64,000 nucleotides of DNA from Escherichia coli. GTDB taxonomy: Bacteria > Pseudomonadota > Gammaproteobacteria > Enterobacterales > Enterobacteriaceae. The notes beneath the pieces were generated by a model that was not told the DNA's origin, did no database searches, and saw nothing but the letters and a program-made list of their open reading frames with translations. Positions within the stretch are counted from its first letter, which is position 1. Each line of letters begins with the position of its first letter. This document shows, piece by piece, positions 21,156 through 64,000 of this stretch. The stretch lies in assembly GCF_016026235.1 (NCBI RefSeq), contig NZ_CP065613.1; one strand, 5' to 3'. The position numbers were made by a program, and so were the translations under genes.

Positions 21156-21394
21156 ATAAAGATGATGAGCAACATTCTGTTCATATTAGGTCTAATGAAT
21201 TTTCCATCAATATCGATGGAAGCTTGGTAAAGCAACCTTATTGATTAAAATGTATCGCAGGTTTTATTTTCTGTAATGCTGGTGCATGTGCGTAAATATT
21301 TCTTAAGAGCCGGAAACACCTCTTCCGCCTTTATCGACGATAAACCTACCGCCAGAACCGGTGATGCCATTGACTGCGGTGGCGTGGTTAAAGG

Positions 21395-33771: not shown

Positions 33772-34010
33772 AACGAAAAGCCCCTTACTTGTAGGAGGTC
33801 TGACCACTTGTGATGATATGGTTGTAGTGGATGTAAAAACATTTAGCAATGTGTTTACAATATAATTACAACAAAGCTCACATTGTTGCTGTTTTTATCC
33901 GCACTTCAGGTCAAAAAGTCCTGGTCATAGCACCTGCCCGTACTTCTCGCTTTTGGCGGTATCCGGTACACTGCATTTTGTCTATTACATTTATGCTGAA
34001 GGATATCCTC

Positions 34011-34589
34011 ATGTACCAGGATCTTATTCGTAACGAACTGAACGAAGCGGCGGAAACGCTGGCTAACTTTTTAAAAGATGACGCCAATATTCACGCCATT
34101 CAGCGCGCGGCGGTCCTGTTAGCAGACAGCTTTAAAGCCGGTGGCAAAGTGCTTTCCTGCGGCAACGGCGGTTCCCATTGCGACGCTATGCACTTTGCCG
34201 AAGAGTTGACCGGTCGCTACCGTGAAAACCGTCCGGGCTACCCGGCGATTGCTATTTCTGACGTTAGTCATATTTCCTGCGTCGGTAATGATTTCGGTTT
34301 CAATGATATTTTCTCCCGCTACGTTGAAGCGGTAGGTCGCGAAGGCGATGTACTGCTGGGGATCTCCACCTCCGGTAACTCTGCAAACGTGATCAAAGCG
34401 ATCGCAGCGGCGCGTGAGAAGGGGATGAAAGTGATCACCCTGACCGGTAAAGACGGCGGTAAAATGGCTGGCACGGCGGATATCGAAATTCGCGTTCCGC
34501 ACTTTGGTTATGCCGACCGCATTCAGGAGATTCACATTAAAGTGATCCATATCCTGATCCAGTTAATTGAAAAAGAGATGGTTAAGTAA
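34011..34589 (+). CDS. gmhA: GmhA (LpcA) sedoheptulose-7-phosphate isomerase
   Basis: Track ORF 33849..34589; start trimmed to [15 protein letters not shown]... (192 aa), SIS domain. Confidence 0.9.
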
Positions 34590-34594
34590 GTCTG

Positions 34595-34740
<146 letters not shown>

Positions 34741-37929: not shown

Positions 37930-38010
37930 GACGGATAAGGCGTTTACGCCGCATCCGGCAGTTGTGCACGGATGCCTGATGCGACGCTGACGCGTCTTAT
38001 CATGCCTACA
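37930..38010. repeat. REP elements
   Basis: GTAGGACGGATAAGGCGTTTACGCCGCATCCGGCA... palindromes after yafL. Confidence 0.65.
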
Positions 38011-38604: not shown

Positions 38605-38785
<181 letters not shown>

Positions 38786-45017: not shown

Positions 45018-45189
45018 GGCTTACTTTCTCTGCTGTAATGGTATGGGCGATTTTGTGCACGCAAATCCGGCAGTGACACAAGGTGAGGTATTAAATAGAG
45101 AGGGCGTGAAAGGGGCAAATTATTAATAGGGTGAAAAAATAATTAAATTATTAAAGGGTGAGATATCGGGCATCGTCATAACACATTGC

Positions 45190-45285
<96 letters not shown>

Positions 45286-45404
45286 TAACTCATTGTTTAC
45301 CATCAAATAATATTTTTATTATCGTTTAATTCGAACTTGTTAATCCCGCCGGTGATACGCTTCACAATATCCTGTTTTCTGTCGCTACTTATATCGTTCA
45401 CCCT

Positions 45405-46382
45405 ATGTCTGAACTTATTGCAACTGCCGCTTCCAGCATTAACGCTTTTACTCTGGCAAAGCGTGTCGCCGCCTTTAACGTGCCGGTGCTCATTCAGGGC
45501 GAAACCGGCGCGGGCAAAGAGTGCGTGGCAAAATATATTCACACCGTAGCCTTTGGTGAAAATGAAAACGTCCCCTATATCGGCGTGAACTGCGCGGCGA
45601 TCCCGGAAAACATGCTGGAAGCCACGTTATTTGGCTACGACAAAGGCGCATTTACCGGCGCAATTGCCAGCGTGCCAGGAAAAATGGAACTGGCGAATAA
45701 CGGTACCTTATTACTCGATGAAATTGGCGATATGCCGCTGGCATTACAGGCTAAAATATTACGCGTATTGCAGGAACAGCAGGTTGAGCGATTAGGCAGC
45801 AACCGACAAATTAAACTCAATTTTCGCCTGATTGCCTGCACCAATAAAAACCTTGAACAGGAAGTGGCTGCCGGGCGTTTTCGTGAAGATCTCTATTATC
45901 GTCTGGCGGTTATTCCTATTACCATGCCGCCGCTGCGCGAACGTCTGAACGATATTATTCCGCTGGCAGAGTCATTTATTAAAAAATACTCCACGGTGCT
46001 GGTGAAAAATATCACCCTTTCAGAATCTACCCGCCGTGCGCTGCTCAATTACCGCTGGCCCGGCAACGTGCGCCAGTTGGAGAACGCCATTCAGCGGGGA
46101 ATGATTTTAAACCGCGATGGCGTGATTTACCCGGACGCGTTAGGCCTGCCGGAAAATGACGTTGCCGACCGCAGCGAACTGCAATGGCCTGCCGTCAACA
46201 TTGCTGAAACCAGCGATTTAGGCCAGCACGGACGAAGCGCGCAATATCAATATATCGCCGACCTGATGCGTAAATATCAGGGCAACCGCAGCAAAATCGC
46301 CGACCTGTTAGGCATTACCCCGCGCGCACTGCGTTATCGACTGGCCTCCATGCGCAAGCAAGGTATCGAAGTTTTCTCCTGA
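45405..46382 (+). CDS. lafK: Sigma-54-dependent transcriptional activator (LafK-like), no receiver domain
   Basis: 325 aa; Walker A GETGAGKE, GAFTGA motif, C-terminal HTH; protein begins directly with the AAA+ domain. Confidence 0.75.
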   Translation: MSELIATAASSINAFTLAKRVAAFNVPVLIQGETGAGKECVAKYIHTVAFGENENVPYIGVNCAAIPENMLEATLFGYDKGAFTGAIASVPGKMELANNGTLLLDEIGDMPLALQAKILRVLQEQQVERLGSNRQIKLNFRLIACTNKNLEQEVAAGRFREDLYYRLAVIPITMPPLRERLNDIIPLAESFIKKYSTVLVKNITLSESTRRALLNYRWPGNVRQLENAIQRGMILNRDGVIYPDALGLPENDVADRSELQWPAVNIAETSDLGQHGRSAQYQYIADLMRKYQGNRSKIADLLGITPRALRYRLASMRKQGIEVFS

Positions 46383-46396
46383 CCCGGAAGTTAAAA

Positions 46397-46738
46397 ATGA
46401 GCATTACCACAATCAACAGCACCATGCAGGCGCAAATCATGCAGGACGTGCAGCGGATGCAGGCCAACGCCCAGGCGCCGGTGCTGCCCGCCATGACCTT
46501 CAGTTCCACTGACCTGGACGTTTCGTTTAACCGCATTATGCAGGGCGCGCTCGGTCACGTTGACCAGTTCCAGCAGGTGGCGGAGCAGCAGCAAACGGCA
46601 ATCGACCTGGGAAAAAGCGATGACCTGGCCGGCGCGATGATCGCCAGCCAGCAGGCGTCGCTCTCTTTCTCGGCGCTGGTTCAGGTGCGCAATAAAATTG
46701 CCACCGGGTTTAACGACCTGATGAGTATGTCGATCTAA
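46397..46738 (+). CDS. lfiE: Lateral flagellar FliE homolog
   Basis: 113 aa, position before fliF homolog. Confidence 0.6.
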   Translation: MSITTINSTMQAQIMQDVQRMQANAQAPVLPAMTFSSTDLDVSFNRIMQGALGHVDQFQQVAEQQQTAIDLGKSDDLAGAMIASQQASLSFSALVQVRNKIATGFNDLMSMSI

Positions 46739-56392: not shown

Positions 56393-57092
56393 GATATGTT
56401 TACGAAGTAGATAAGGCCGGGAAAAACCGGCCTGAAAGCGTTAGCAAGGTAGCAGCGAAAACGCATAAAGCAGCGGCTCTGCGCAACATTCAGCCTGAAT
56501 TTGTTGGCGAATCAGCAGCGCATTTTCACTCTCTCGCCAGCGTTCAAACATGGCAAAGAGGGCGAAAATATCCTCCTGCCGCAGCGGAGAACCATCCAGC
56601 GTCCATAAACTGATTAACGTGCGGAGGAGATAAAAATCGCACACCAGCGGGAAATAATCCGCCCCGTCAGTCTGCCCAATCATATCGTGGTAAACGCGGT
56701 AAATCAGCCAGTTACGCATCATCCAGGGCGCGGTGGCAAAATGCTGTTGCCAGGTGGTTTGCCACTGCGTCTGAAGCTGCTGTTGTAACAGGGCTTCGCT
56801 GTTGGCGTCATGCAGCGTCAGTAAAGTAACCTGCAACGGCAGCGAGGCTTTGCGCGGGCTTTCCGGCAAAATCGACCAGTCAAACGCACAACCGCCGAGC
56901 AGCGTCATCAACTGGCGCGCCAGCTGTGGCACGGGTGGGAGCTGGGCGTACTGTGCCTGTAGCGTACCTTTTTTCGCATGATCGGCCAGCGCCTGTGGCA
57001 GCGTCGTCAAACGGGCCAGGATGTCTCCGTCTCTGCCCGGCATTTTGCTGGCGCGGGAGAGCAAAATCCCGACAGCATACAGGGAAAGCTCC

Positions 57093-58383
57093 TGAGGAAT
57101 CCCCAGAAAACAAGACAGGCATAGTGAGATGTGATCTAATTGATTGTGCTAACAATTTCAAGGAGATCACCACTATGCCTGCACGTTCATTATGCCAAAA
57201 TTTCCTTAACAATATACTGGCCCCTTTGCATCTTTACCGTCAAAAATCACTGATTGACGCAACTAATGCTGTAATAAATGGCGCTTCCCTCACACTTACC
57301 AGTATCGGGCGTCATTTAACCGGTACGGCATCAGTTAAAAACAAAATAAAGCGGGTGGATCGACTGTTGGGGAATCGACATTTGCAAAATGAGGTTTCCA
57401 CCATTTTTTAGCGAATTACCCAAAAGATTACGCGGGGAATGTCTCGTGTTGTGATACTCATTGACTGGAGTGCTTATCATGCCTCTCGTTTTCAGCTTTT
57501 GCGGGCAAGCCTGGCATGTGACGGGCGTTCTTTACCGTTGATGAGTTGTGTCGTTCCATCATCACAGACAGCGAATGCAGATGTACATGAGCGTTTTCTG
57601 GAATCGCTTGCTGAGTGCTTTTCCCCCGGGACTGATGTCATTGTTATTACAGATGCCGGTTTTCAGGGGCGATGGTTCCAACAGCTCCGCTCCCGTGGCT
57701 GGACCTATATTTGCCGGGTACTGGGCAATCATTATTACAATGTTGGTAATGGCTGGGAAAAGGTGTCGGACTCAGGCACAAAAGCATCAACGACAGCAAT
57801 TTATTTAGGTGAAGGCCTGCTGGGTCGAGATAAAAATGCACAACATGAAGGGCATTTTTATCTTTATAAAAGTAAGCCTAAAGGTCGTAGATTTAAACGC
57901 TCGAAGGAAAGAGCAACCAGACCATCGGTGACGGCTAAAGCTCGTACTGCCGGGAAATCACCATGGTTTATTTTCACAAACAGTACTGAGTTCTCGCCAA
58001 AACAGGTAATGAAATTATACAGCCGTAGAATGCAAATTGAGCAAAATTTCAGGGATGAAAAAATCCTCGCTGGGGATTTGGACTACGGTTTGGTGCCAGT
58101 CATTCATCCGGGCGGGTCACGGTATTGAGTCTGATCGCAACATTAGCCAGTATCATTATGTGGTTAAGCGGTTTCAGCCTGGAAAACAAAGGGATACATC
58201 ATAAATATCAGGCAAATACAGTGAAGCACAGGCGAGTCATCTCGTTATTAAAACTGGCGGAGAATGTGATTCGACATTCTCCACTCATACTAAACACACT
58301 GTCACTTGACGCAGGGCTGAAAGTTCTACAGCAACGGTATACCAATATGATAATGGTTTACTAAATTTTCTGGGGATCCCTCA
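57093..58383 (+). mobile_element. IS4-family-like insertion sequence, copy 2 (mutated), inverted relative to copy 1
   Basis: Same inverted repeats as copy 1; 11-bp direct repeat GGGAAAGCTCC at 57082-57092 and 58385-58395. Confidence 0.8.
57175..58364 (+). pseudogene. IS transposase pseudogene (nonsense codon plus 1-bp deletion)
   Basis: Relative to copy 1: CAG to TAG at approx 57410 and an A6 run where copy 1 has A7 (approx 58066-58071); track shows three ORF pieces. Confidence 0.75.
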
Positions 58384-58802
58384 GGGGAAAGCTCCGGGGT
58401 TAAATCACGGAGCGTGAGGGTACTCAAAATCACCTGGTTTACTATCGCATCGCGCGCGGAAAGCTCTGCGGAATTATCTTCCACAGGGCGGTAGGTGAGC
58501 TGTAAATCAAAGGCCCTGACATCGTTGAGCACCGCTTCGCAGCTGGCAATATCGGTCAATGACAGGCTCAGGCGAATCTCGTTTTTCCACACCTTGCGGA
58601 CGTATAAAGGCGAACCGGGGTGACGCGCTAAAAATTTGCGCACGTATTCCGGTTCGTAACATTCAATAAAACTCATAGGTGGCTTCCAGTCTTTAATGCT
58701 GTGCAGGATATGCAATAAGCGTGCCGGGGATTTTTGTAATTAAAAACAAGGGATTGGAAATCAGGCGGAAAATCCATTTCCGCTATGGGGAAGGTATTCG
58801 CG

Positions 58803-59243: not shown

Positions 59244-59522
59244 TTAGTTCTGGAAAAAACTCAGCATGTCGCTGGCTAACTGTTCGGTGTTCACTTGCGG
59301 GCTGCCGGAGGCCAGCATCGCCTGCATTTGCGCCACTTTGTCGCTGTCGATATCGCTCTCTTGCTGGTCGTTCAGCGTTTGCTGGGCAGACTGCAATCCC
59401 GCCTGAGTAATGTCGTCGGCGCTCAGCGCCGTGGTGGTGGTCGCCGTGCTTTTGGGCGGCTGGCTGGCGCCTGCCGTCGTGGCTGTCGGGCGATTGCCTG
59501 GCATAGTCGGGGTGATTTTCAT
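59244..59522 (-). CDS. lfgM: Anti-sigma-28 factor FlgM-like
   Basis: 92 aa, Ser/Thr/Gln-rich with FlgM-like C-terminal helix; between flgA and flgN homologs. Confidence 0.55.
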   Translation of the reverse strand: MKITPTMPGNRPTATTAGASQPPKSTATTTTALSADDITQAGLQSAQQTLNDQQESDIDSDKVAQMQAMLASGSPQVNTEQLASDMLSFFQN

Positions 59523-59602
59523 CGCAACCTCGTCTCGGTATTTGGGTGGGTTACACTGGTAAAGCGGTTAACAGGCGGCAAAACTTTAATCGCCTGCGCA
59601 AA

Positions 59603-60361
59603 TTACTCCGCACTTACCGTCGTCACCACGCCGCTTTCTGCCACCATCGCGCTGATGATCCGCTGGCTGCTGGCGTTACGTATTTTCACCATCTCGCCTT
59701 TGCGACCATTTTTCAGCGCCACGCCGGGCATCGAGGCGGTGATCCCTGCGCTCTGGTAAACAATCATCACCGGCTGATCGCGCTCGACCAGCACAGGCGA
59801 AACCAGTTCTTCTTTGGTGATTGGCCTGCCCGGTTGCAGCGCGTGCTTACTGCTTAAACCAATTGCGTCATTGAGATCCATCAACACATCGCGGCGCTGG
59901 GCGCTGACGTTGTAGGGCTTCAACTCCACATCATTCGCCGTGAGCGGCGTATCGCGGGCAACCAGTGACTTTGTCATCACCACCGGCACCAGCACATCCG
60001 GGCGCACCGCCACGTTCATCTGCCAGCTTTGCGGGCAACTGACGGTGAAGTTCATCCGGTTGAGGGCGATTTCCGCAGGCGAAGTGAGCGTAACGCCGGG
60101 TGTTGTCGCACAGGGCGCGGCGGTCGCAATCTGCGAGGGAATGTAGACCTTAAAGGTGTAGCGATAGTCATGCCACTGCCGCTGCTGCGCCAGCGATTCA
60201 ATTTCCTGGCTCGCGGCATTCAGCACCTGGGCGTTGACTTGTTCCCGTGCGCTGTGTTGCACGGGGTGGACGGCGGCGTAGCCCGGTAAGGCCAGCGCCA
60301 GGAGGAAATACAACTTCCGCCTGCAAAATTGAAAACTCATAAACCCTTTCTCATCAGTCAC
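59603..60361 (-). CDS. lfgA: FlgA-like P-ring assembly chaperone
   Basis: 252 aa with signal peptide and C-terminal GEMVKIRNASSQRIISAMV motif; divergent from lfgB. Confidence 0.7.
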   Translation of the reverse strand: MTDEKGFMSFQFCRRKLYFLLALALPGYAAVHPVQHSAREQVNAQVLNAASQEIESLAQQRQWHDYRYTFKVYIPSQIATAAPCATTPGVTLTSPAEIALNRMNFTVSCPQSWQMNVAVRPDVLVPVVMTKSLVARDTPLTANDVELKPYNVSAQRRDVLMDLNDAIGLSSKHALQPGRPITKEELVSPVLVERDQPVMIVYQSAGITASMPGVALKNGRKGEMVKIRNASSQRIISAMVAESGVVTTVSAE

Positions 60362-60374
60362 TTAAAAAATGACA

Positions 60375-60391
60375 CGGCGATTGCTTAGCGT
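60375..60391 (+). promoter_or_regulatory. Candidate sigma-54 promoter upstream of lfgB
   Basis: TGACACGGCGATTGCT matches TGGCAC-N5-TTGC except the first G of the -24 GG; about 30 nt upstream of the lfgB start; sigma-54 activator lafK is in the locus. Confidence 0.25.
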
Positions 60392-60421
60392 ATGCGGATT
60401 GAAGCAGGAGTGACGCAGGAA

Positions 60422-60757
60422 ATGGGGATCAGTTTTCAGCAGGCATTGGGAGTACATCCGCAGGCAGTGAAGTTACGTCTTGAGAGGACCGAGCTACTGA
60501 CTGCGAATCTGGCGAACGTTGATACGCCAAATTTCAAGGCTAAAGATATTGATTTTGCCAGGGAGATGCAACGGGCAAATAACGCGGCGGTGGATGTCCA
60601 GTACCGCGTGCCGATGCAGCCTTCCGAAGATGGCAACACCGTGGAACTGAACAGCGAACAGGCGCGGTTTTCACAAAATAGTATGGATTATCAAAGCAGT
60701 CTGACCTTTCTGAATCTGCAAATCAGCGGCATCAGAGAGGCCATTGAAGGGAAATAA
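60422..60757 (+). CDS. lfgB: Lateral flagellar rod protein FlgB homolog
   Basis: Track ORF 60392..60757; start trimmed to MGISFQQALGVHPQAVKLRLERTELLTANLANVDTPNFKAKDIDF. Confidence 0.8.
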   Translation: MGISFQQALGVHPQAVKLRLERTELLTANLANVDTPNFKAKDIDFAREMQRANNAAVDVQYRVPMQPSEDGNTVELNSEQARFSQNSMDYQSSLTFLNLQISGIREAIEGK

Positions 60758-60759
60758 GC

Positions 60760-61191
60760 ATGTCATTTACTGATATCTATCAGATTTCCGGCTCGGCGAT
60801 GACGGCGCAAACGCTACGTTTGAATACCGTTGCCAGTAACCTGGCGAATGCCAATGCGCCCGCCAGCAGCGAGGCGCAGGCGTATAAAGCGCGCAGCCCA
60901 GTGTTTGCGGCGGTGTATCACCACAGCTTGCTGGCGGGAACGCATCGCCATGCGATCGACGGTGCCAGCGTGCAGGTGCAGGACGTGCTGCAAACCGGCG
61001 GGGCGGTGAAACGCTATGAACCGCATTCGCCGCTCGCCGATGCTAACGGCGACGTCTGGTATCCCGACGTCAACGTGGTGGAACAGATGGCGGACATGAT
61101 GTCGGCCTCGCGCGATTTCGAAACCAATGTCGATGTGCTCAACAACGTGAAAAGTATGCAGCAAAGTTTGCTGAAACTGGGAGAAGCCTGA
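60760..61191 (+). CDS. lfgC: Lateral flagellar rod protein FlgC homolog
   Basis: 143 aa; FlgC-conserved N- and C-terminal blocks. Confidence 0.85.
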   Translation: MSFTDIYQISGSAMTAQTLRLNTVASNLANANAPASSEAQAYKARSPVFAAVYHHSLLAGTHRHAIDGASVQVQDVLQTGGAVKRYEPHSPLADANGDVWYPDVNVVEQMADMMSASRDFETNVDVLNNVKSMQQSLLKLGEA

Positions 61192-61904
61192 TGAATACCC
61201 TGGCGCTGAATGCGCAATCGCCGCAACCCACCGCCACGGCGGAAAGCAATAATGTGGCGGCCAGCGACACGACAAGCAGCAGCGATAGCTCGCCCGTCGA
61301 TACTTTCCTGACGCTGTTTGTCGCCGAGATCCAAAACCAGGACCCGACTGACCCGACCGACGCCACCGAATATATCGACCAGCTTTCGTCGATGGCGCAG
61401 GTGGCGATGATGGAAGAGATGAGTGTGCAGGCCAACACCAACGCGGTGCTGATGAGCAACATCCAGGTGATGGCGCTCGGTAACCTGGTGGGCGACGACA
61501 TTATGGTGCAGACCACCGCCTTGCAGGTGAGCGACCAGACCATAAATGGTCGCGCTACGCTGGACGACGCCTGTACCACCGCCGATCTCCACTTTACCGA
61601 TGCCGCAGGCGATGACTACACCGTCTCGCTGATCCCGGAAGGCAGTTCGTCCGTCGGGCCAGGGCAGGTGGATTTCTCGGTGAACCCTGCCGATTACGGT
61701 ATCCCGCCGGGCGATTACGACGTTTCGGTGGTCACCAATACCGGGGAAGAAGAGGTGCCGATTGAAGTGTCCGGCGAAGTGGAAGATGTGCGCATCCCGC
61801 TCGACGGCAGCTCTCCGGTGCTCAACGTTGCAGGCGTGGGCGAAGTGCCGTTCACCATGATTAGCCAGTTTGGCGTACCCGATGCCGACAGTAATGTAGC
61901 GTGA
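61191..61904 (+). CDS. lfgD: Lateral flagellar hook-cap protein FlgD homolog
   Basis: 237 aa; FLTLFVAEIQNQDPTDP motif typical of FlgD. Confidence 0.75.
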   Translation: MNTLALNAQSPQPTATAESNNVAASDTTSSSDSSPVDTFLTLFVAEIQNQDPTDPTDATEYIDQLSSMAQVAMMEEMSVQANTNAVLMSNIQVMALGNLVGDDIMVQTTALQVSDQTINGRATLDDACTTADLHFTDAAGDDYTVSLIPEGSSSVGPGQVDFSVNPADYGIPPGDYDVSVVTNTGEEEVPIEVSGEVEDVRIPLDGSSPVLNVAGVGEVPFTMISQFGVPDADSNVA

Positions 61905-61919
61905 TGTCCGGTGCCAAAT

Positions 61920-62008
61920 AGCCTGATGCGCTTCGCTTATCAGGCCAACACCAAAGTTATCGCCACCAGCACGCAGCTCGATGACGCGCTGTTCCAGGCA
62001 ATGTAATG
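61920..62008 (+). other. REP-like palindrome plus approx 20-codon coding remnant where lfgE is expected
   Basis: GCCTGATGCGCTTCGCTTATCAGGCC followed by an in-frame ...NTKVIATSTQLDDALFQAM-stop that overlaps the lfgF ATG as TAATG. Confidence 0.45.
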
Positions 62009-62743
62009 GACCGTTTGATTTATACCGCCCTGAGCGGTGCTTCTCAGACCCTGTACGAGCAGCAGATTAGCGCCAACAACCTGGCGAACGTCAACACCAA
62101 CGGTTTTCGCGCCGATATGGCGATGGCGACCAACGACAAGGTGAAAGGCAGCGGCTTCGACACGCGCTATATGGCGCAGGAAGGGGCCAGCGGCGTGAAC
62201 GACAGCACGGGTGTAGCGGAGAAAACCGAACGCCCGCTGGACGTGGCGATTCAGGGCGCGGGTTACATTGCGGTGCAGGATAAAAACGGCAACGAAGTCT
62301 ATACCCGCAACGGCAACATTCAGCAGGACGACCAGGGGCAACTGACTATCGACGGCAATCTGGTGCTGGGGGATAACGGGCCGATCATTCTGCCGCCGAA
62401 CGCCATTGCTTCGTTTGGCAGCGACGGCACGCTGTCGGTGACGCCCGATGACGGCGACGTAACCGCGACGATGGATATCGACCGCCTGAAGCTGGTGGAT
62501 ATCCCGGTCGCTAACCTGGCGAAAAATCCTGAAGGGATGCTGGTGACTAGCGACGGCATTCCGGCCCAGCGCGATGAAAACATCAAAGTCAGCGGCGGTT
62601 TTCTCGAAGGCAGCAACGTCTCGGCGGTGAGCGAGATGATGTCGTCCATCGCCATGAACCGCCAGTTTGAAGCGCAGATCAAAATGATGAAAACCGCCGA
62701 AGATATCAGCGACGCGGGCAACCGCTTATTGCGCGGCTCGTAA
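62006..62743 (+). CDS. lfgF: Lateral flagellar rod protein FlgF homolog
   Basis: 245 aa; MDRLIYTALSGASQTLYEQQISANNLANVNTNGFRAD. Confidence 0.8.
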   Translation: MDRLIYTALSGASQTLYEQQISANNLANVNTNGFRADMAMATNDKVKGSGFDTRYMAQEGASGVNDSTGVAEKTERPLDVAIQGAGYIAVQDKNGNEVYTRNGNIQQDDQGQLTIDGNLVLGDNGPIILPPNAIASFGSDGTLSVTPDDGDVTATMDIDRLKLVDIPVANLAKNPEGMLVTSDGIPAQRDENIKVSGGFLEGSNVSAVSEMMSSIAMNRQFEAQIKMMKTAEDISDAGNRLLRGS

Positions 62744-62749
62744 CCGCAC

Positions 62750-62800
<51 letters not shown>

Positions 62801-62821
62801 AATAACACGGAATTTACCACC

Positions 62822-63607
62822 ATGAACGCAGCATTATGGATCAGCAAAACTGGCCTCTCGGCGCAGGATGCTGAAATGAGCGCGATTGCCAACAACATCG
62901 CCAACGTTAACACCACTGGCTTCAAGCGCGATCGGGTGATGTTTCAGGATCTGTTTTACCAGACCCAGGAAGCGCCGGGGGCGATGCTCGACCAGAACAA
63001 CATCATGCCGACCGGGCTGCAATTCGGTAGCGGCGTGCGCATTGTTGGCACCCAGAAAACCTTCACCGAAGGCAACGTTGAAACCACCGACAACGCGATG
63101 AATGTCGCCATTATGGGGCAGGTTTTTTTGCAGGTGCAAAAGGCCAATGGCGATATTGCCTATACCCGCGATGGCAATTTGCAGGTGAACGCTGACGGCG
63201 TGCTGACCAACTCGCAGGGCTTGCCGTTGCAGCTGGAAATCGACGTTCCGGCAGGGGCGACTAATGTTGCTTTTGGCGAAGACGGCACGGTGACGGCGAT
63301 CTTACCCGGCGACAGCGACGTGACCGAGTTAGGGCAACTGACGCTGGTGAACTTCGCCAACCCGGCGGGGCTTTCCGCCGAGGGCGACAACCTCTATCTG
63401 GAAACCGCCGCCAGCGGTCAGCCGACCGAAGGCGTACCGGGCGAAGATGGGCTTGGCACCTTGCAGGACAACGCCCTGGAAGGCTCAAACGTGGATATTG
63501 TCAACGAAATGGTGGCGATGATTACGGTGCAACGTGCGTACGAGATGAACGCCAAAATGGTGTCGGCGGCGGACGATATGTTGCAGTACATCAGCCAGAC
63601 GCTGTAA
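62822..63607 (+). CDS. lfgG: Lateral flagellar distal rod protein FlgG homolog
   Basis: 261 aa, highly conserved FlgG sequence. Confidence 0.9.
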   Translation: MNAALWISKTGLSAQDAEMSAIANNIANVNTTGFKRDRVMFQDLFYQTQEAPGAMLDQNNIMPTGLQFGSGVRIVGTQKTFTEGNVETTDNAMNVAIMGQVFLQVQKANGDIAYTRDGNLQVNADGVLTNSQGLPLQLEIDVPAGATNVAFGEDGTVTAILPGDSDVTELGQLTLVNFANPAGLSAEGDNLYLETAASGQPTEGVPGEDGLGTLQDNALEGSNVDIVNEMVAMITVQRAYEMNAKMVSAADDMLQYISQTL

Positions 63608-63609
63608 GG

Positions 63610-63660
63610 CGAAATGTCGGATGCGACGCTGACGCGTCTTATCCGACCTACAAAAGCCCA
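63610..63660. repeat. REP element
   Basis: GTCGGATGCGACGCTGACGCGTCTTATCCGACCTAC after lfgG. Confidence 0.6.
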
Positions 63661-63689
63661 TAACTCACTGTATTTAAAACAGGCAGAAC

Positions 63690-64000
63690 GTGAAAAATTA
63701 TCTCTGGCTGGTGGCGCTGCTTCCCCTGCTTAGCGGGTGTGAATCGCAGGCCATTCTGGTCAAAAAAGACGACGCATACTTTGCGCCACCGAAAACCGAA
63801 GCGCCGCCTCCGGCAGACGGGCGTGCCGGGGGCGTATTTGAAACCGGCTACAACTGGTCGCTAACCGCCGATCGGCGGGCTTATCGTGTGGGCGATATCC
63901 TGACGGTGATCCTCGAAGAATCCACCCAGTCGAGCAAACAGGCGAAAACCAACTTCGGCAAAAGCAACACCGTCGATATCGGCGCGCCGACCATTTTTGG
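63690..64000 (+). CDS. lfgH: Lateral flagellar L-ring lipoprotein FlgH homolog, N-terminal part; continues past window end
   Basis: GTG start, signal peptide with lipobox LSGC, then FlgH-like sequence (GVFETGYNWSLTADRRAYRVGDILTVILEE); not in ORF track because truncated. Confidence 0.75.
   Translation, partial: MKNYLWLVALLPLLSGCESQAILVKKDDAYFAPPKTEAPPPADGRAGGVFETGYNWSLTADRRAYRVGDILTVILEESTQSSKQAKTNFGKSNTVDIGAPTIF

What the first reader, a model, noticed from the sequence alone, without database searches (positions are those of the whole stretch)
60362..60421. Near-consensus sigma-54 promoter between divergent lfgA and lfgB
TGACACGGCGATTGCT has the correct -24/-12 spacing and matches TGGCAC-N5-TTGC except at the first G of the GG dinucleotide. 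A sigma-54 activator lacking a receiver domain is encoded in the locus, so sigma-54-dependent control of the rod/hook operon is plausible but the mismatch is at a critical base.
Basis: partly seen in the sequence, partly recalled or inferred. Interest (0 to 1): 0.3.

Follow-up and report, generated by a model that had tools for sequence, protein, structure and literature searches.

The report
Mutated sigma-54 promoter of lateral-flagella rod operon
The motif is the real, deeply conserved sigma-54 promoter of the second (Flag-2) flagellar rod/hook operon, but in this strain alone it carries a G-to-A change at a base that all 80 other species sampled keep, inside a gene cluster that is visibly decaying.

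Summary
The sequence TGACACGGCGATTGCT is at 60370-60385 (+), 37 nt upstream of the lfgB start codon (60422), with canonical -24/-12 spacing. The mismatch is the second G of the GG (TGG to TGA), not the first.

As a bare pattern it is no rarer than chance in 64 kb. Its position and orthology make it real: all 80 other species with this operon carry TGGCAY-N5-TTGC-like sites with both Gs at the same place.

The A is private. A 36-mer with A hits 1 of 5426 complete E. coli genomes (FDAARGOS_943, the window's near-twin). The same 36-mer with G hits 619.

That lineage also has a private deletion of the hook gene lfgE and IS insertions, so the promoter lesion is best read as part of Flag-2 decay.

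The receiver-less activator LafK (45405-46382) is intact, with GAFTGA and an HTH. A second sigma-54 site lies at 58709-58729 (-).

Beyond the finding, a palindrome GCGGAAA-N5-TTTCCGC sits about 40-52 nt upstream of the GG at every sigma-54 promoter of the locus. It recurs across species and in a Vibrio-like lateral flgB promoter. Inside lfgA it is held at synonymous sites. It is probably the LafK enhancer site.

Overall an ordinary member of a known promoter class, plus one possibly unreported operator motif.

The parts
60370..60385 (+). Sigma-54 core promoter of the lfgB operon (P_lfgB): the -24 element TGACAC (ancestrally TGGCAC), a 5-nt spacer, and the -12 element TTGCT.
   Evidence: Sequence. 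The orthologous TGGCAY-N5-TTGC is present in 80 of 80 species. PWM score is 15.9 bits as found and 22.7 with G restored; the ortholog median is 25.8.
60372..60372 (+). Lineage-private G-to-A substitution at the second G of the -24 GG.
   Evidence: The 36-mer with A hits 1 of 5426 E. coli genomes. With G it hits 619. Other G haplotypes hit 29 and 67 genomes. The alignment of 11 other Escherichia shows G in all.
60302..60320 (.). Palindrome GAGGAAATACAACTTCCGC, a candidate LafK enhancer (UAS). Its centre is about -85 relative to the predicted start. It lies inside codons 8-13 of lfgA.
   Evidence: It is conserved at a fixed distance in orthologs. Synonymous sites are frozen, e.g. TTC in 66 of 66.
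60352..60364 (+). IHF-like site CATCAGTCACTTA (consensus WATCAA-N4-TTR) between the palindrome and the -24 element.
   Evidence: The anchored logo of 77 unique orthologous promoters shows tca-N5-tTaaA at -43 to -31. A relaxed match sits at the same position in 44 of 78. IHF binding is inferred, not tested.
60396..60421 (+). Predicted transcript start (about 12 nt after the -12 C at 60384) and the roughly 26-nt leader with AGGAG before the lfgB ATG.
   Evidence: Inference from standard sigma-54 geometry and the sequence. No transcript data.
60422..64000 (+). The lfgB operon as far as the window reaches: lfgB 60422-60757, lfgC 60760-61191, lfgD 61191-61904, [lfgE deleted], lfgF 62006-62743, lfgG 62822-63607, and the start of lfgH.
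   Evidence: ORFs; annotation of the sister genome.
59603..60340 (-). lfgA (P-ring chaperone), divergent from lfgB. Its 5' end carries the palindrome.
   Evidence: Pfam ChapFlgA, E = 4e-29; annotation.
45405..46382 (+). lafK: a sigma-54 activator with no receiver domain. It has Walker A GETGAGKE, GAFTGA, Walker B DE and a C-terminal Fis-type HTH.
   Evidence: Pfam Sigma54_activat at residues 6-172 (E = 1e-63), AAA_lid_14, and HTH_8 at 281-314. Motifs read.
58709..58729 (-). Second sigma-54 promoter, CCCCGGCACGCTTATTGCATA, in front of the FliB-like flagellin lysine-N-methylase gene (ATG at 58674).
   Evidence: Best PWM hit of the whole window at 17.1 bits. It is conserved in Escherichia and Citrobacter loci. 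The gene matches NCBIfam Lys_methyl_FliB weakly, below the curated cut-off, and is annotated lysine-N-methylase in RefSeq.
58765..58783 (.). Perfect palindrome GCGGAAAATCCATTTCCGC in non-coding DNA, 39 nt upstream of the GG of the second promoter.
   Evidence: The same arrangement is seen in other species, with 10 perfect copies at 39-42 nt.
61938..61950 (+). Junction of a roughly 1.2-kb deletion that removes the hook gene lfgE.
   Evidence: BLAST against four other Escherichia loci shows a 1.2-kb gap with a 13-nt overlap. The junction occurs in 1 of 5426 E. coli genomes; 1227 others match only the flgE 3' half.
57092..58386 (+). ISEc60-like (IS4 family) insertion that splits the methylase gene driven by the second sigma-54 promoter.
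   Evidence: 99.6-99.8% identical to the two ISEc60 copies of L001, and absent at this site in L001 and in other Escherichia. Annotation.

Best explanation
The site is P_lfgB, the class II promoter of the Flag-2 (lateral-type) flagellar rod/hook operon lfgBCD(E)FGHIJKL. Proposed mechanism:
1. Sigma-54 RNA polymerase binds the -24/-12 element (60370-60385) as a closed complex.
2. LafK, an activator with no receiver domain, binds the palindrome GGAAA-N5-TTTCC centred about 85 bp upstream (60302-60320, inside the first codons of lfgA).
3. With help from an IHF-like bend site (60352-60364), LafK contacts sigma-54 through its GAFTGA loop and uses ATP to open the promoter.
4. Transcription starts near 60396.

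In this lineage only, the second G of the invariant GG has mutated to A. That should weaken sigma-54 binding strongly. It is one of several private lesions (lfgE deletion, IS insertions) in a Flag-2 locus that is being lost.

Shown here: orthology, invariance of GG/GC, privacy of the A allele, LafK domain make-up, recurrence and DNA-level constraint of the palindrome, and the locus lesions.
Inferred: binding by sigma-54, LafK and IHF, the start site, and the size of the promoter defect.
For: Orthology and conservation
- Eighty loci from 80 species, fetched with LfgB, all carry a GG-N10-GC sigma-54 motif upstream of lfgB. It lies 30-82 nt from the start codon.
- In the 62 unique sites, G-25, G-24, G-13 and C-12 are invariant while the spacer varies.
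- The Escherichia alignment shows the window differs from all others at this one base of the motif.

Privacy of the allele
- A allele: 1 of 5426 genomes. G allele in the same context: 619. Two other G haplotypes: 29 and 67.
- The PWM penalty for the A is 6.8 bits.

Activator
- LafK is intact, with a sigma-54 interaction domain from residue 6, GAFTGA and HTH_8.

Other sites and the palindrome
- Other sigma-54 sites in the locus lie at 58709-58729 (-) and at L001 34071-34091.
- The palindrome accompanies all three.
- Across species it has 3 or fewer mismatches in 54 of 78 lfgB promoters, at 50-53 or 60 nt, and in 20 of 33 other sigma-54 hits, at 39-42 or 48 nt. Downstream control regions never fall below 4 mismatches.
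- The window holds 3 near-perfect copies against 0.28 expected.
- Inside lfgA, codon 6 is TTC in 66 of 66 sequences. Arg is only AGG/CGG. Flanking amino acids vary (R/G/V/W/M/L and R/P/L) while the DNA stays NGG and CNC.
- A Vibrio-like contig carries the exact published V. parahaemolyticus flgB2 sigma-54 site. Its only GGAA-N7-TTCC in 12.5 kb lies 40 nt upstream of the GG.

Literature
- RpoN binds the V. parahaemolyticus flgB2 promoter in EMSA (PMC9817140).
- A. hydrophila lateral PflgB is class II and falls from 970 to 20 Miller units in a lafK mutant (PMC5013049).

Decay of the locus
- lfgE deletion and IS insertions.
Against: - There are no transcript, binding or reporter data for this strain or for any Escherichia Flag-2.
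- A single change in GG is not always fatal. Characterised Myxococcus sigma-54 promoters with GA at -24 are reported (PMC7910581), so residual activity is possible.
- The PWM score of the site is not above what random 64-kb sequence gives. The case rests on position and orthology.
- LafK binding to the palindrome is inferred from co-occurrence only; another factor could bind it.
- The Citrobacter group has a weak palindrome at lfgB (3-4 mismatches).
- No sigma-54 site was found upstream of lfiM, lafK or lfiE, so not all of Flag-2 is under this control.
- rpoN is not in the window. That E. coli has it rests on general knowledge.
Confidence: 0.72

Rival explanations
1. The promoter still works. 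GA at -24 only lowers affinity modestly, and the lfgB operon remains LafK/sigma-54 inducible in this strain.
For: Sigma-54 promoters with a one-base change in GG or GC, including GA at -24, have been characterised in M. xanthus (PMC7910581). Everything else is intact in the window: TGxCACG, TTGCT, spacing, palindrome, IHF-like site and LafK.
Against: Both Gs are invariant in 80 of 80 orthologous promoters, and in every other sigma-54 hit of these loci that carries the palindrome (3 or fewer mismatches at 39-48 nt). That argues for strong selection against exactly this change. The allele is confined to a lineage whose operon already lacks the hook gene.
Confidence: 0.2
2. It is a chance match with no promoter function.
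For: One-mismatch matches occur at chance frequency in the window, 8 against 7.7 expected. A PWM score of 15.9 is reached by 57 of 200 random windows.
Against: The site is at the exact orthologous position of a canonical motif in 80 species, on the right strand, 37 nt before lfgB. It comes with a conserved upstream palindrome and an IHF-like site.
Confidence: 0.02
3. The A is a sequencing or assembly error, and the strain really has TGGCAC.
For: It is a single-base difference seen in only one lineage.
Against: The same A is in the window and in the finished genome FDAARGOS_943. The two differ from each other in IS positions, so they are not the same assembly. The context is not a homopolymer at the changed base.
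Confidence: 0.03
4. The G-to-A change was selected to silence a now useless or harmful hook-less operon, rather than being neutral decay.
For: The mutation hits one of the four most critical bases of the promoter. The same lineage has lost lfgE, so expressing rod and ring proteins without a hook would be wasteful.
Against: The order of events is unknown. The lineage shows many IS insertions and pseudogenes, consistent with relaxed selection generally. One mutation cannot separate selection from drift.
Confidence: 0.15

Closest known systems
LafK/sigma-54-dependent class II promoter of the lateral flagellar flgB operon in Vibrio parahaemolyticus (flgB2, VPA0264) and Aeromonas hydrophila (PflgB_L)
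   Same: It is the same gene (lateral-type flgB as first gene of the rod/hook operon), the same -24/-12 motif and the same receiver-less activator, LafK. RpoN binds the Vibrio flgB2 promoter (PMC9817140). The Aeromonas PflgB loses 98% of its activity in a lafK mutant (PMC5013049). A Vibrio-like contig shows the same GGAA-N7-TTCC palindrome 40 nt upstream of the GG.
   Different: Here the system sits in an Escherichia Flag-2 locus, generally regarded as cryptic or non-functional in E. coli. The -24 GG is mutated to GA in this lineage. No experimental data exist for this promoter.
Classical enhancer-dependent sigma-54 promoters with an IHF bend (for example K. pneumoniae nifH with NifA, P. putida Pu with XylR)
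   Same: The architecture matches: an upstream palindromic activator site, an IHF-like site between it and the core, and a TGGCAC-N5-TTGC core. The activator has an AAA+ domain with GAFTGA and a C-terminal HTH.
   Different: The palindrome is unusually close (centre about -75 to -87) and differs in sequence from the NifA, NtrC, XylR and FleQ sites I know of (from memory, not tested). The activator has no regulatory N-terminal domain, like PspF.
PspF, the E. coli sigma-54 activator that lacks a receiver domain
   Same: LafK likewise starts directly with the AAA+ sigma-54 interaction domain and ends in an HTH.
   Different: The regulon is different (flagellar rather than phage-shock) and so is the DNA site. 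LafK falls below the curated cut-offs of the PspF models.

Membership tests
Sigma-54 (RpoN) dependent promoter | GG dinucleotide at -25/-24 | tested here: not met
   The window has GA, with base 60372 = A. All 80 orthologs and all other Escherichia sampled have GG. So the ancestral site is a member, and the window's allele is a mutated member.
Sigma-54 (RpoN) dependent promoter | GC dinucleotide at -13/-12 within TTGCW | tested here: met
   TTGCT at 60381-60385.
Sigma-54 (RpoN) dependent promoter | Fixed spacing: GG and GC 12 nt apart (TGGCAC-N5-TTGC) | tested here: met
   TGACAC GGCGA TTGC.
Sigma-54 (RpoN) dependent promoter | Placed upstream of a gene on the same strand, at leader distance | tested here: met
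   The -12 C at 60384 is 37 nt from the lfgB ATG at 60422. The range in orthologs is 30-82 nt.
Sigma-54 (RpoN) dependent promoter | A cognate enhancer-binding AAA+ activator with a GAFTGA loop | tested here: met
   LafK at 45405-46382: Sigma54_activat E = 1e-63, GAFTGA present, HTH_8.
Sigma-54 (RpoN) dependent promoter | An upstream activator binding site (UAS) | tested here: inconclusive
   A conserved palindrome at fixed distance accompanies all sigma-54 sites of the locus. Binding by LafK is not demonstrated.
Sigma-54 (RpoN) dependent promoter | Transcription depends on rpoN and starts about 12 nt after the GC | not testable with these tools
   This needs 5'-RACE or reporter assays. Homologous promoters in Vibrio and Aeromonas behave this way (PMC9817140, PMC5013049).
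Flag-2 / lateral flagellar gene cluster (lfh-lfi-lafK-lfg-laf) | Gene order lfhAB-lfiRQPNM / lafK-lfiEFGHIJ / lfgNMA / lfgBCDEFGHIJKL with lafK present | tested here: met
   ORF map and RefSeq annotation of the sister genome, compared with the cluster description in PMC6993521. The exception is that lfgE is deleted here.
IHF-assisted sigma-54 promoter | WATCAA-N4-TTR site between the UAS and the core promoter | tested here: inconclusive
   The window has CATCAGTCACTTA, two mismatches. A conserved tca-N5-tTaaA lies at a fixed position across species, with 44 of 78 relaxed matches. There is no binding test.

The most novel reading that the evidence does not exclude
The palindrome GCGGAAA-N5-TTTCCGC (core GGAA-N7-TTCC) is the operator of LafK, for which I found no published binding site in the library searched. 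Under this reading:
- It defines the LafK regulon: lfgB operon, the fliB-like methylase gene and the lafB operon.
- It is conserved from a Vibrio-like lateral flagellar locus through Enterobacterales, with variants at other distances or spacing in a few more distant Gammaproteobacteria.
- At lfgB it is written into the first codons of the divergent lfgA gene. It dictates the Lys and Phe of the LfgA signal peptide and freezes synonymous sites across more than 60 species.
Probability: 0.55. Interest if true: 0.45.

Novelty: new member of a known kind. Interest (0 to 1): 0.3.

Why it matters
For the finding itself, little is new. Lateral-flagella flgB operons are already known to be sigma-54/LafK dependent, and a broken promoter in a broken locus is ordinary gene decay.

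It is useful in three ways:
- It is a clean natural example that the second G of the -24 GG is under absolute constraint: 80 of 80 species keep it. The private allele offers a ready-made promoter-down control for anyone testing Flag-2 expression in E. coli.
- The comparative set gives a regulatory map of Flag-2. There are three sigma-54 promoters (lfgB, the methylase gene, lafB) and none before lfiM, lafK or lfiE. This matches the class I / class II split reported for Aeromonas.
- The recurrent palindrome gives a directly testable candidate for the LafK binding site. It is also a clear case of a regulatory element constraining the coding sequence of a neighbouring gene.

Tried and rejected
- Bare pattern and PWM significance. 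Neither the one-mismatch IUPAC search nor the PWM puts the site above chance for a 64-kb window, so I did not rest the case on score.
- A sigma-70 promoter for lfgB. The consensus scan finds none in 60150-60650. The mutation makes ATGACA, a 5-of-6 match to the -35 hexamer, but no -10 hexamer follows at 16-18 nt (by eye). I rejected the idea that the change creates a sigma-70 promoter.
- The weak sigma-54-like hit at 60158-60178 (-) inside lfgA (10.0 bits). No ortholog has a hit of 14 bits or more there, so I treated it as chance.
- The one-mismatch hits at 46689 (-) and 50234 (-). Both are antisense inside lfiE and lfiI, and neither reaches 3 bits with the PWM. Chance.
- Sigma-54 sites upstream of lfiM, lafK or lfiE: none at 3 bits or more.
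- A sigma-28 pattern search was uninformative at 3 mismatches and I dropped it.
- Protein-coding constraint as the explanation of the lfgA-embedded palindrome. Rejected because synonymous positions are frozen while amino acids vary, and because the same palindrome occurs in non-coding DNA at the other promoters.
- Literature. Ren et al. 2005, Stewart & McCarter 2003 and Wilhelms et al. 2013 are not held. I could not check whether they already list this promoter or a LafK site. A search for 'LafK' returned no paper describing a binding site.
- The metagenome scan with the Vibrio flgB2 19-mer gave five loci. Four are unrelated chance matches, and only L093 is a lateral flgB locus.

Full report
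**1. What the window is.**
The region from about 38.8 kb to the end of the window is an Escherichia Flag-2 (lateral-type, second flagellar) gene cluster. Bases 59500-61300 are 99.9% identical to E. coli FDAARGOS_943 and about 96% identical to some 1,280 other complete E. coli genomes.

RefSeq annotation of that sister genome, with my ORF map, gives this order:
- lfhA, lfhB and lfiRQPNM on the minus strand.
- lafK-lfiEFGHIJ on the plus strand.
- A variable glycosyltransferase/methylase block.
- lfgN, lfgM and lfgA on the minus strand.
- lfgBCD-FG... on the plus strand.

This matches the published Flag-2 layout (PMC6993521). Key coordinates are lfgA 59603-60340 (-) and lfgB 60422-60757 (+). The longer ORF from 60392 listed is not the annotated start.

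**2. The observation.**
TGACAC GGCGA TTGCT lies at 60370-60385 on the lfgB strand. Spacing is canonical for TGGCAC-N5-TTGC. The one departure is at 60372.

As a pattern the site is unremarkable:
- One-mismatch matches occur 8 times in the window against 7.7 expected.
- I built a PWM from the orthologous promoters. The site scores 15.9 bits, and 57 of 200 random 64-kb sequences reach that as their best hit.
- The site is nonetheless one of only two hits above 15 bits in the real window.
- It lies in the 81-bp lfgA-lfgB spacer on the correct strand, 37 nt before the lfgB ATG.

**3. Orthology settles it.**
I aligned 15 LfgB proteins and fetched 80 loci from 80 species. These were Escherichia, Citrobacter, Enterobacter, Yersinia, Pantoea, Erwinia, Rosenbergiella, Tatumella and Mangrovibacter, plus a few Pseudomonas, Serpens, Methylomonas and Lysobacteraceae.
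- Every one has a GG-N10-GC sigma-54 motif upstream of lfgB, 30-82 nt from the start codon.
- In the 62 unique sites, both Gs of the GG and the G and C of the GC never vary. The five spacer bases vary freely.
- The window's site sits at the orthologous position. In an alignment with six E. coli and five other Escherichia, the motif differs only at 60372.

**4. The A is a private mutation.**
- A 36-mer centred on the base hits one of 5,426 complete E. coli genomes, FDAARGOS_943.
- The same 36-mer with G hits 619 genomes.
- Two other G haplotypes hit 29 and 67 genomes.
- FDAARGOS_943 and the window are not the same assembly, because their IS elements sit at different places. The A is therefore seen twice independently and is unlikely to be an error.
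- Restoring G raises the PWM score from 15.9 to 22.7 bits. The ortholog median is 25.8.

By general knowledge of sigma-54 promoters, GG and GC are the recognition hallmarks, and changes there are typically promoter-down. Exceptions exist: characterised M. xanthus promoters with GA at -24 are reported (PMC7910581). I therefore call the promoter 'probably crippled', not 'certainly dead'.

**5. The locus is decaying in this lineage.**
- Compared with four other Escherichia, about 1.2 kb between lfgD and lfgF is missing, with a 13-nt overlap at 61938-61950. This removes the hook gene lfgE.
- That junction also occurs in only one of 5,426 genomes. In 1,227 others the right half of the query lies inside an annotated flgE.
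- An ISEc60-like element (57092-58386) splits the FliB-like methylase gene in the window.
- The sister genome has other IS copies in the glycosyltransferase gene and in lfgH, and an internal stop in lfgL.

The promoter lesion is one of several. Whether it is neutral decay or selected silencing of a hook-less operon cannot be told from these data.

**6. The activator.**
LafK (45405-46382, 325 aa) begins directly with the sigma-54 interaction domain at residues 6-172 (E = 1e-63). It has an AAA lid and ends in a Fis-type HTH at 281-314.

**7. Other sigma-54 sites.**
- The best PWM hit of the whole window is 58709-58729 (-), CCCCGGCACGCTTATTGCATA. It lies 37 nt before the ATG of the methylase gene.
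- In the sister genome a third site, TATTGGCACGCCTTTTGCCAA (19.6 bits), precedes fliD/lafB. That position is beyond the window.
- No site of 3 bits or more precedes lfiM, lafK or lfiE.

This fits the Aeromonas scheme, in which PfliM (with lafK) is class I and PflgB is class II. There, PflgB drops from 970 to 20 Miller units in a lafK mutant (PMC5013049). In V. parahaemolyticus, sigma-54 motifs are listed for lateral flgB2 and lafB, and RpoN shifts the flgB2 promoter (PMC9817140).

**8. A candidate LafK enhancer.**
A palindrome GCGGAAA-N5-TTTCCGC lies upstream of each sigma-54 site:

| Promoter | Palindrome | Mismatches | Distance to GG |
|---|---|---|---|
| methylase gene (window) | 58765-58783, non-coding | 0 | 39 nt |
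| lfgB (window) | 60302-60320 | 2 over the 14 specified bases | about 50 nt |
| lafB (L001) | 34017-34035 | 1 | 39 nt |
| lafB (L001), second copy | 33994-34012 | 2 | further upstream |

. Further evidence:
- With 12 specified bases and up to 1 mismatch, the window holds 3 copies against 0.28 expected, and 0 of 100 shuffles reach 3.
- Across the 80 loci the palindrome has 3 or fewer mismatches in 54 of 78 lfgB promoters, at 50-53 or 60-61 nt. It has 3 or fewer in 20 of 33 other strong sigma-54 hits, at 39-42 or 48 nt, with ten perfect copies. Equally long downstream control regions never have fewer than 4 mismatches.
- The preferred distances differ by about one helical turn.
- At lfgB the palindrome lies inside lfgA, always in the same codon phase.
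- It is not a protein signal (66 unique sequences). The Phe codon is TTC in 66 of 66. Arg is only AGG or CGG. The neighbouring residues vary (R/G/V/W/M/L and R/P/L) while the DNA stays NGG and CNC.
- One metagenome contig (L093) carries the exact published V. parahaemolyticus flgB2 19-mer followed by an LfgB-like gene. Its only GGAA-N7-TTCC in 12.5 kb lies 40 nt upstream of the GG.
- Between the palindrome and the core, an anchored logo shows a conserved tca-N5-tTaaA in the frame of the IHF consensus. In the window this is CATCAGTCACTTA at 60352-60364.

I infer a compact UAS-IHF-core module. Binding by LafK and IHF is not shown.

**9. Comparison with what is known.**
The promoter belongs to the well-described class of LafK/sigma-54 class II lateral flagellar promoters. 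The window's allele fails the GG criterion and meets the rest.

I could not read Ren et al. 2005, Stewart & McCarter 2003 or Wilhelms et al. 2013. So I cannot say whether this E. coli promoter was already listed. I found no paper describing a LafK operator in the library, but the search is incomplete.

**10. Verdict.**
The correction is that the altered base is the second G. The addition is that the mismatch is a lineage-private lesion in a decaying locus.

As a finding it is ordinary, and I score interest at about 0.3. The more interesting by-product is the conserved palindrome, a testable candidate for the LafK binding site.

Noticed in passing
window 58709-58783 (-): A second sigma-54 promoter (CGGCACGCTTATTGC) with a perfect palindrome GCGGAAAATCCATTTCCGC 39 nt upstream. 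It lies in the lfgN-methylase intergenic region and is the best PWM hit of the whole window.
   Followed up: yes
window 61938-61950: The hook gene lfgE (about 1.2 kb) is cleanly deleted between lfgD and lfgF, with a 13-nt overlap at the junction. The junction is unique to this lineage among 5,426 E. coli genomes.
   Followed up: yes
window 57092-58386: An ISEc60-like IS4-family element is inserted in the FliB-like lysine-N-methylase gene. The near-identical genome FDAARGOS_943 lacks it here but has IS5 and ISEc60 copies at other Flag-2 sites, so the IS was recently active in this lineage.
   Followed up: partly
window 60302-60320, within lfgA codons 8-13: The regulatory palindrome overlaps the LfgA signal-peptide codons in one fixed phase across more than 60 species. 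It freezes synonymous sites (TTC 66 of 66; Arg only AGG/CGG).
   Followed up: yes
L001 33994-34091: A third sigma-54 promoter (TGGCACGCCTTTTGCC, 19.6 bits) before fliD/lafB, with two adjacent palindromes 23 bp apart centre to centre. It lies outside the window.
   Followed up: partly
window 45018-45404: The lfiM-lafK divergent intergenic region has no sigma-54 motif. It contains what looks by eye like an E. coli REP/BIME element (about 45190-45290). The promoters of these presumably class I operons are unidentified.
   Followed up: no
window 21310-21328: A near-perfect copy of the palindrome (CCGGAAACACCTCTTCCGC) lies in the type VI secretion region with no sigma-54 motif nearby. It may be chance, or a site for something else.
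   Followed up: partly
window 62759-62775, 34603-34619, 37932-37948, 38737-38753: Identical CGGATAAGGCGTTTACG strings, REP-like by eye. One sits in the lfgF-lfgG spacer inside the flagellar operon.
   Followed up: no
window 60158-60178 (-): A weak sigma-54-like motif (TGGCATGACTATCGC, 10 bits) inside lfgA, on the lfgA strand. It is not conserved in other species.
   Followed up: partly
window about 1-38000 (by homology to L088): The flanking region in the sister genome is a type VI secretion cluster broken by IS1, IS600, IS21 and ISAs1 elements (tssC split, vgrG truncated). This suggests genome-wide IS expansion in the lineage. I did not check whether the window has the same insertions.
   Followed up: no
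L079-L081 (Methylomonas), about 80 nt upstream of the lfgB GG: A related but differently spaced repeat, GCGGAAA-TTTT-TTGCCGC, precedes the sigma-54 site. The operator may have diverged in distant lineages.
   Followed up: no
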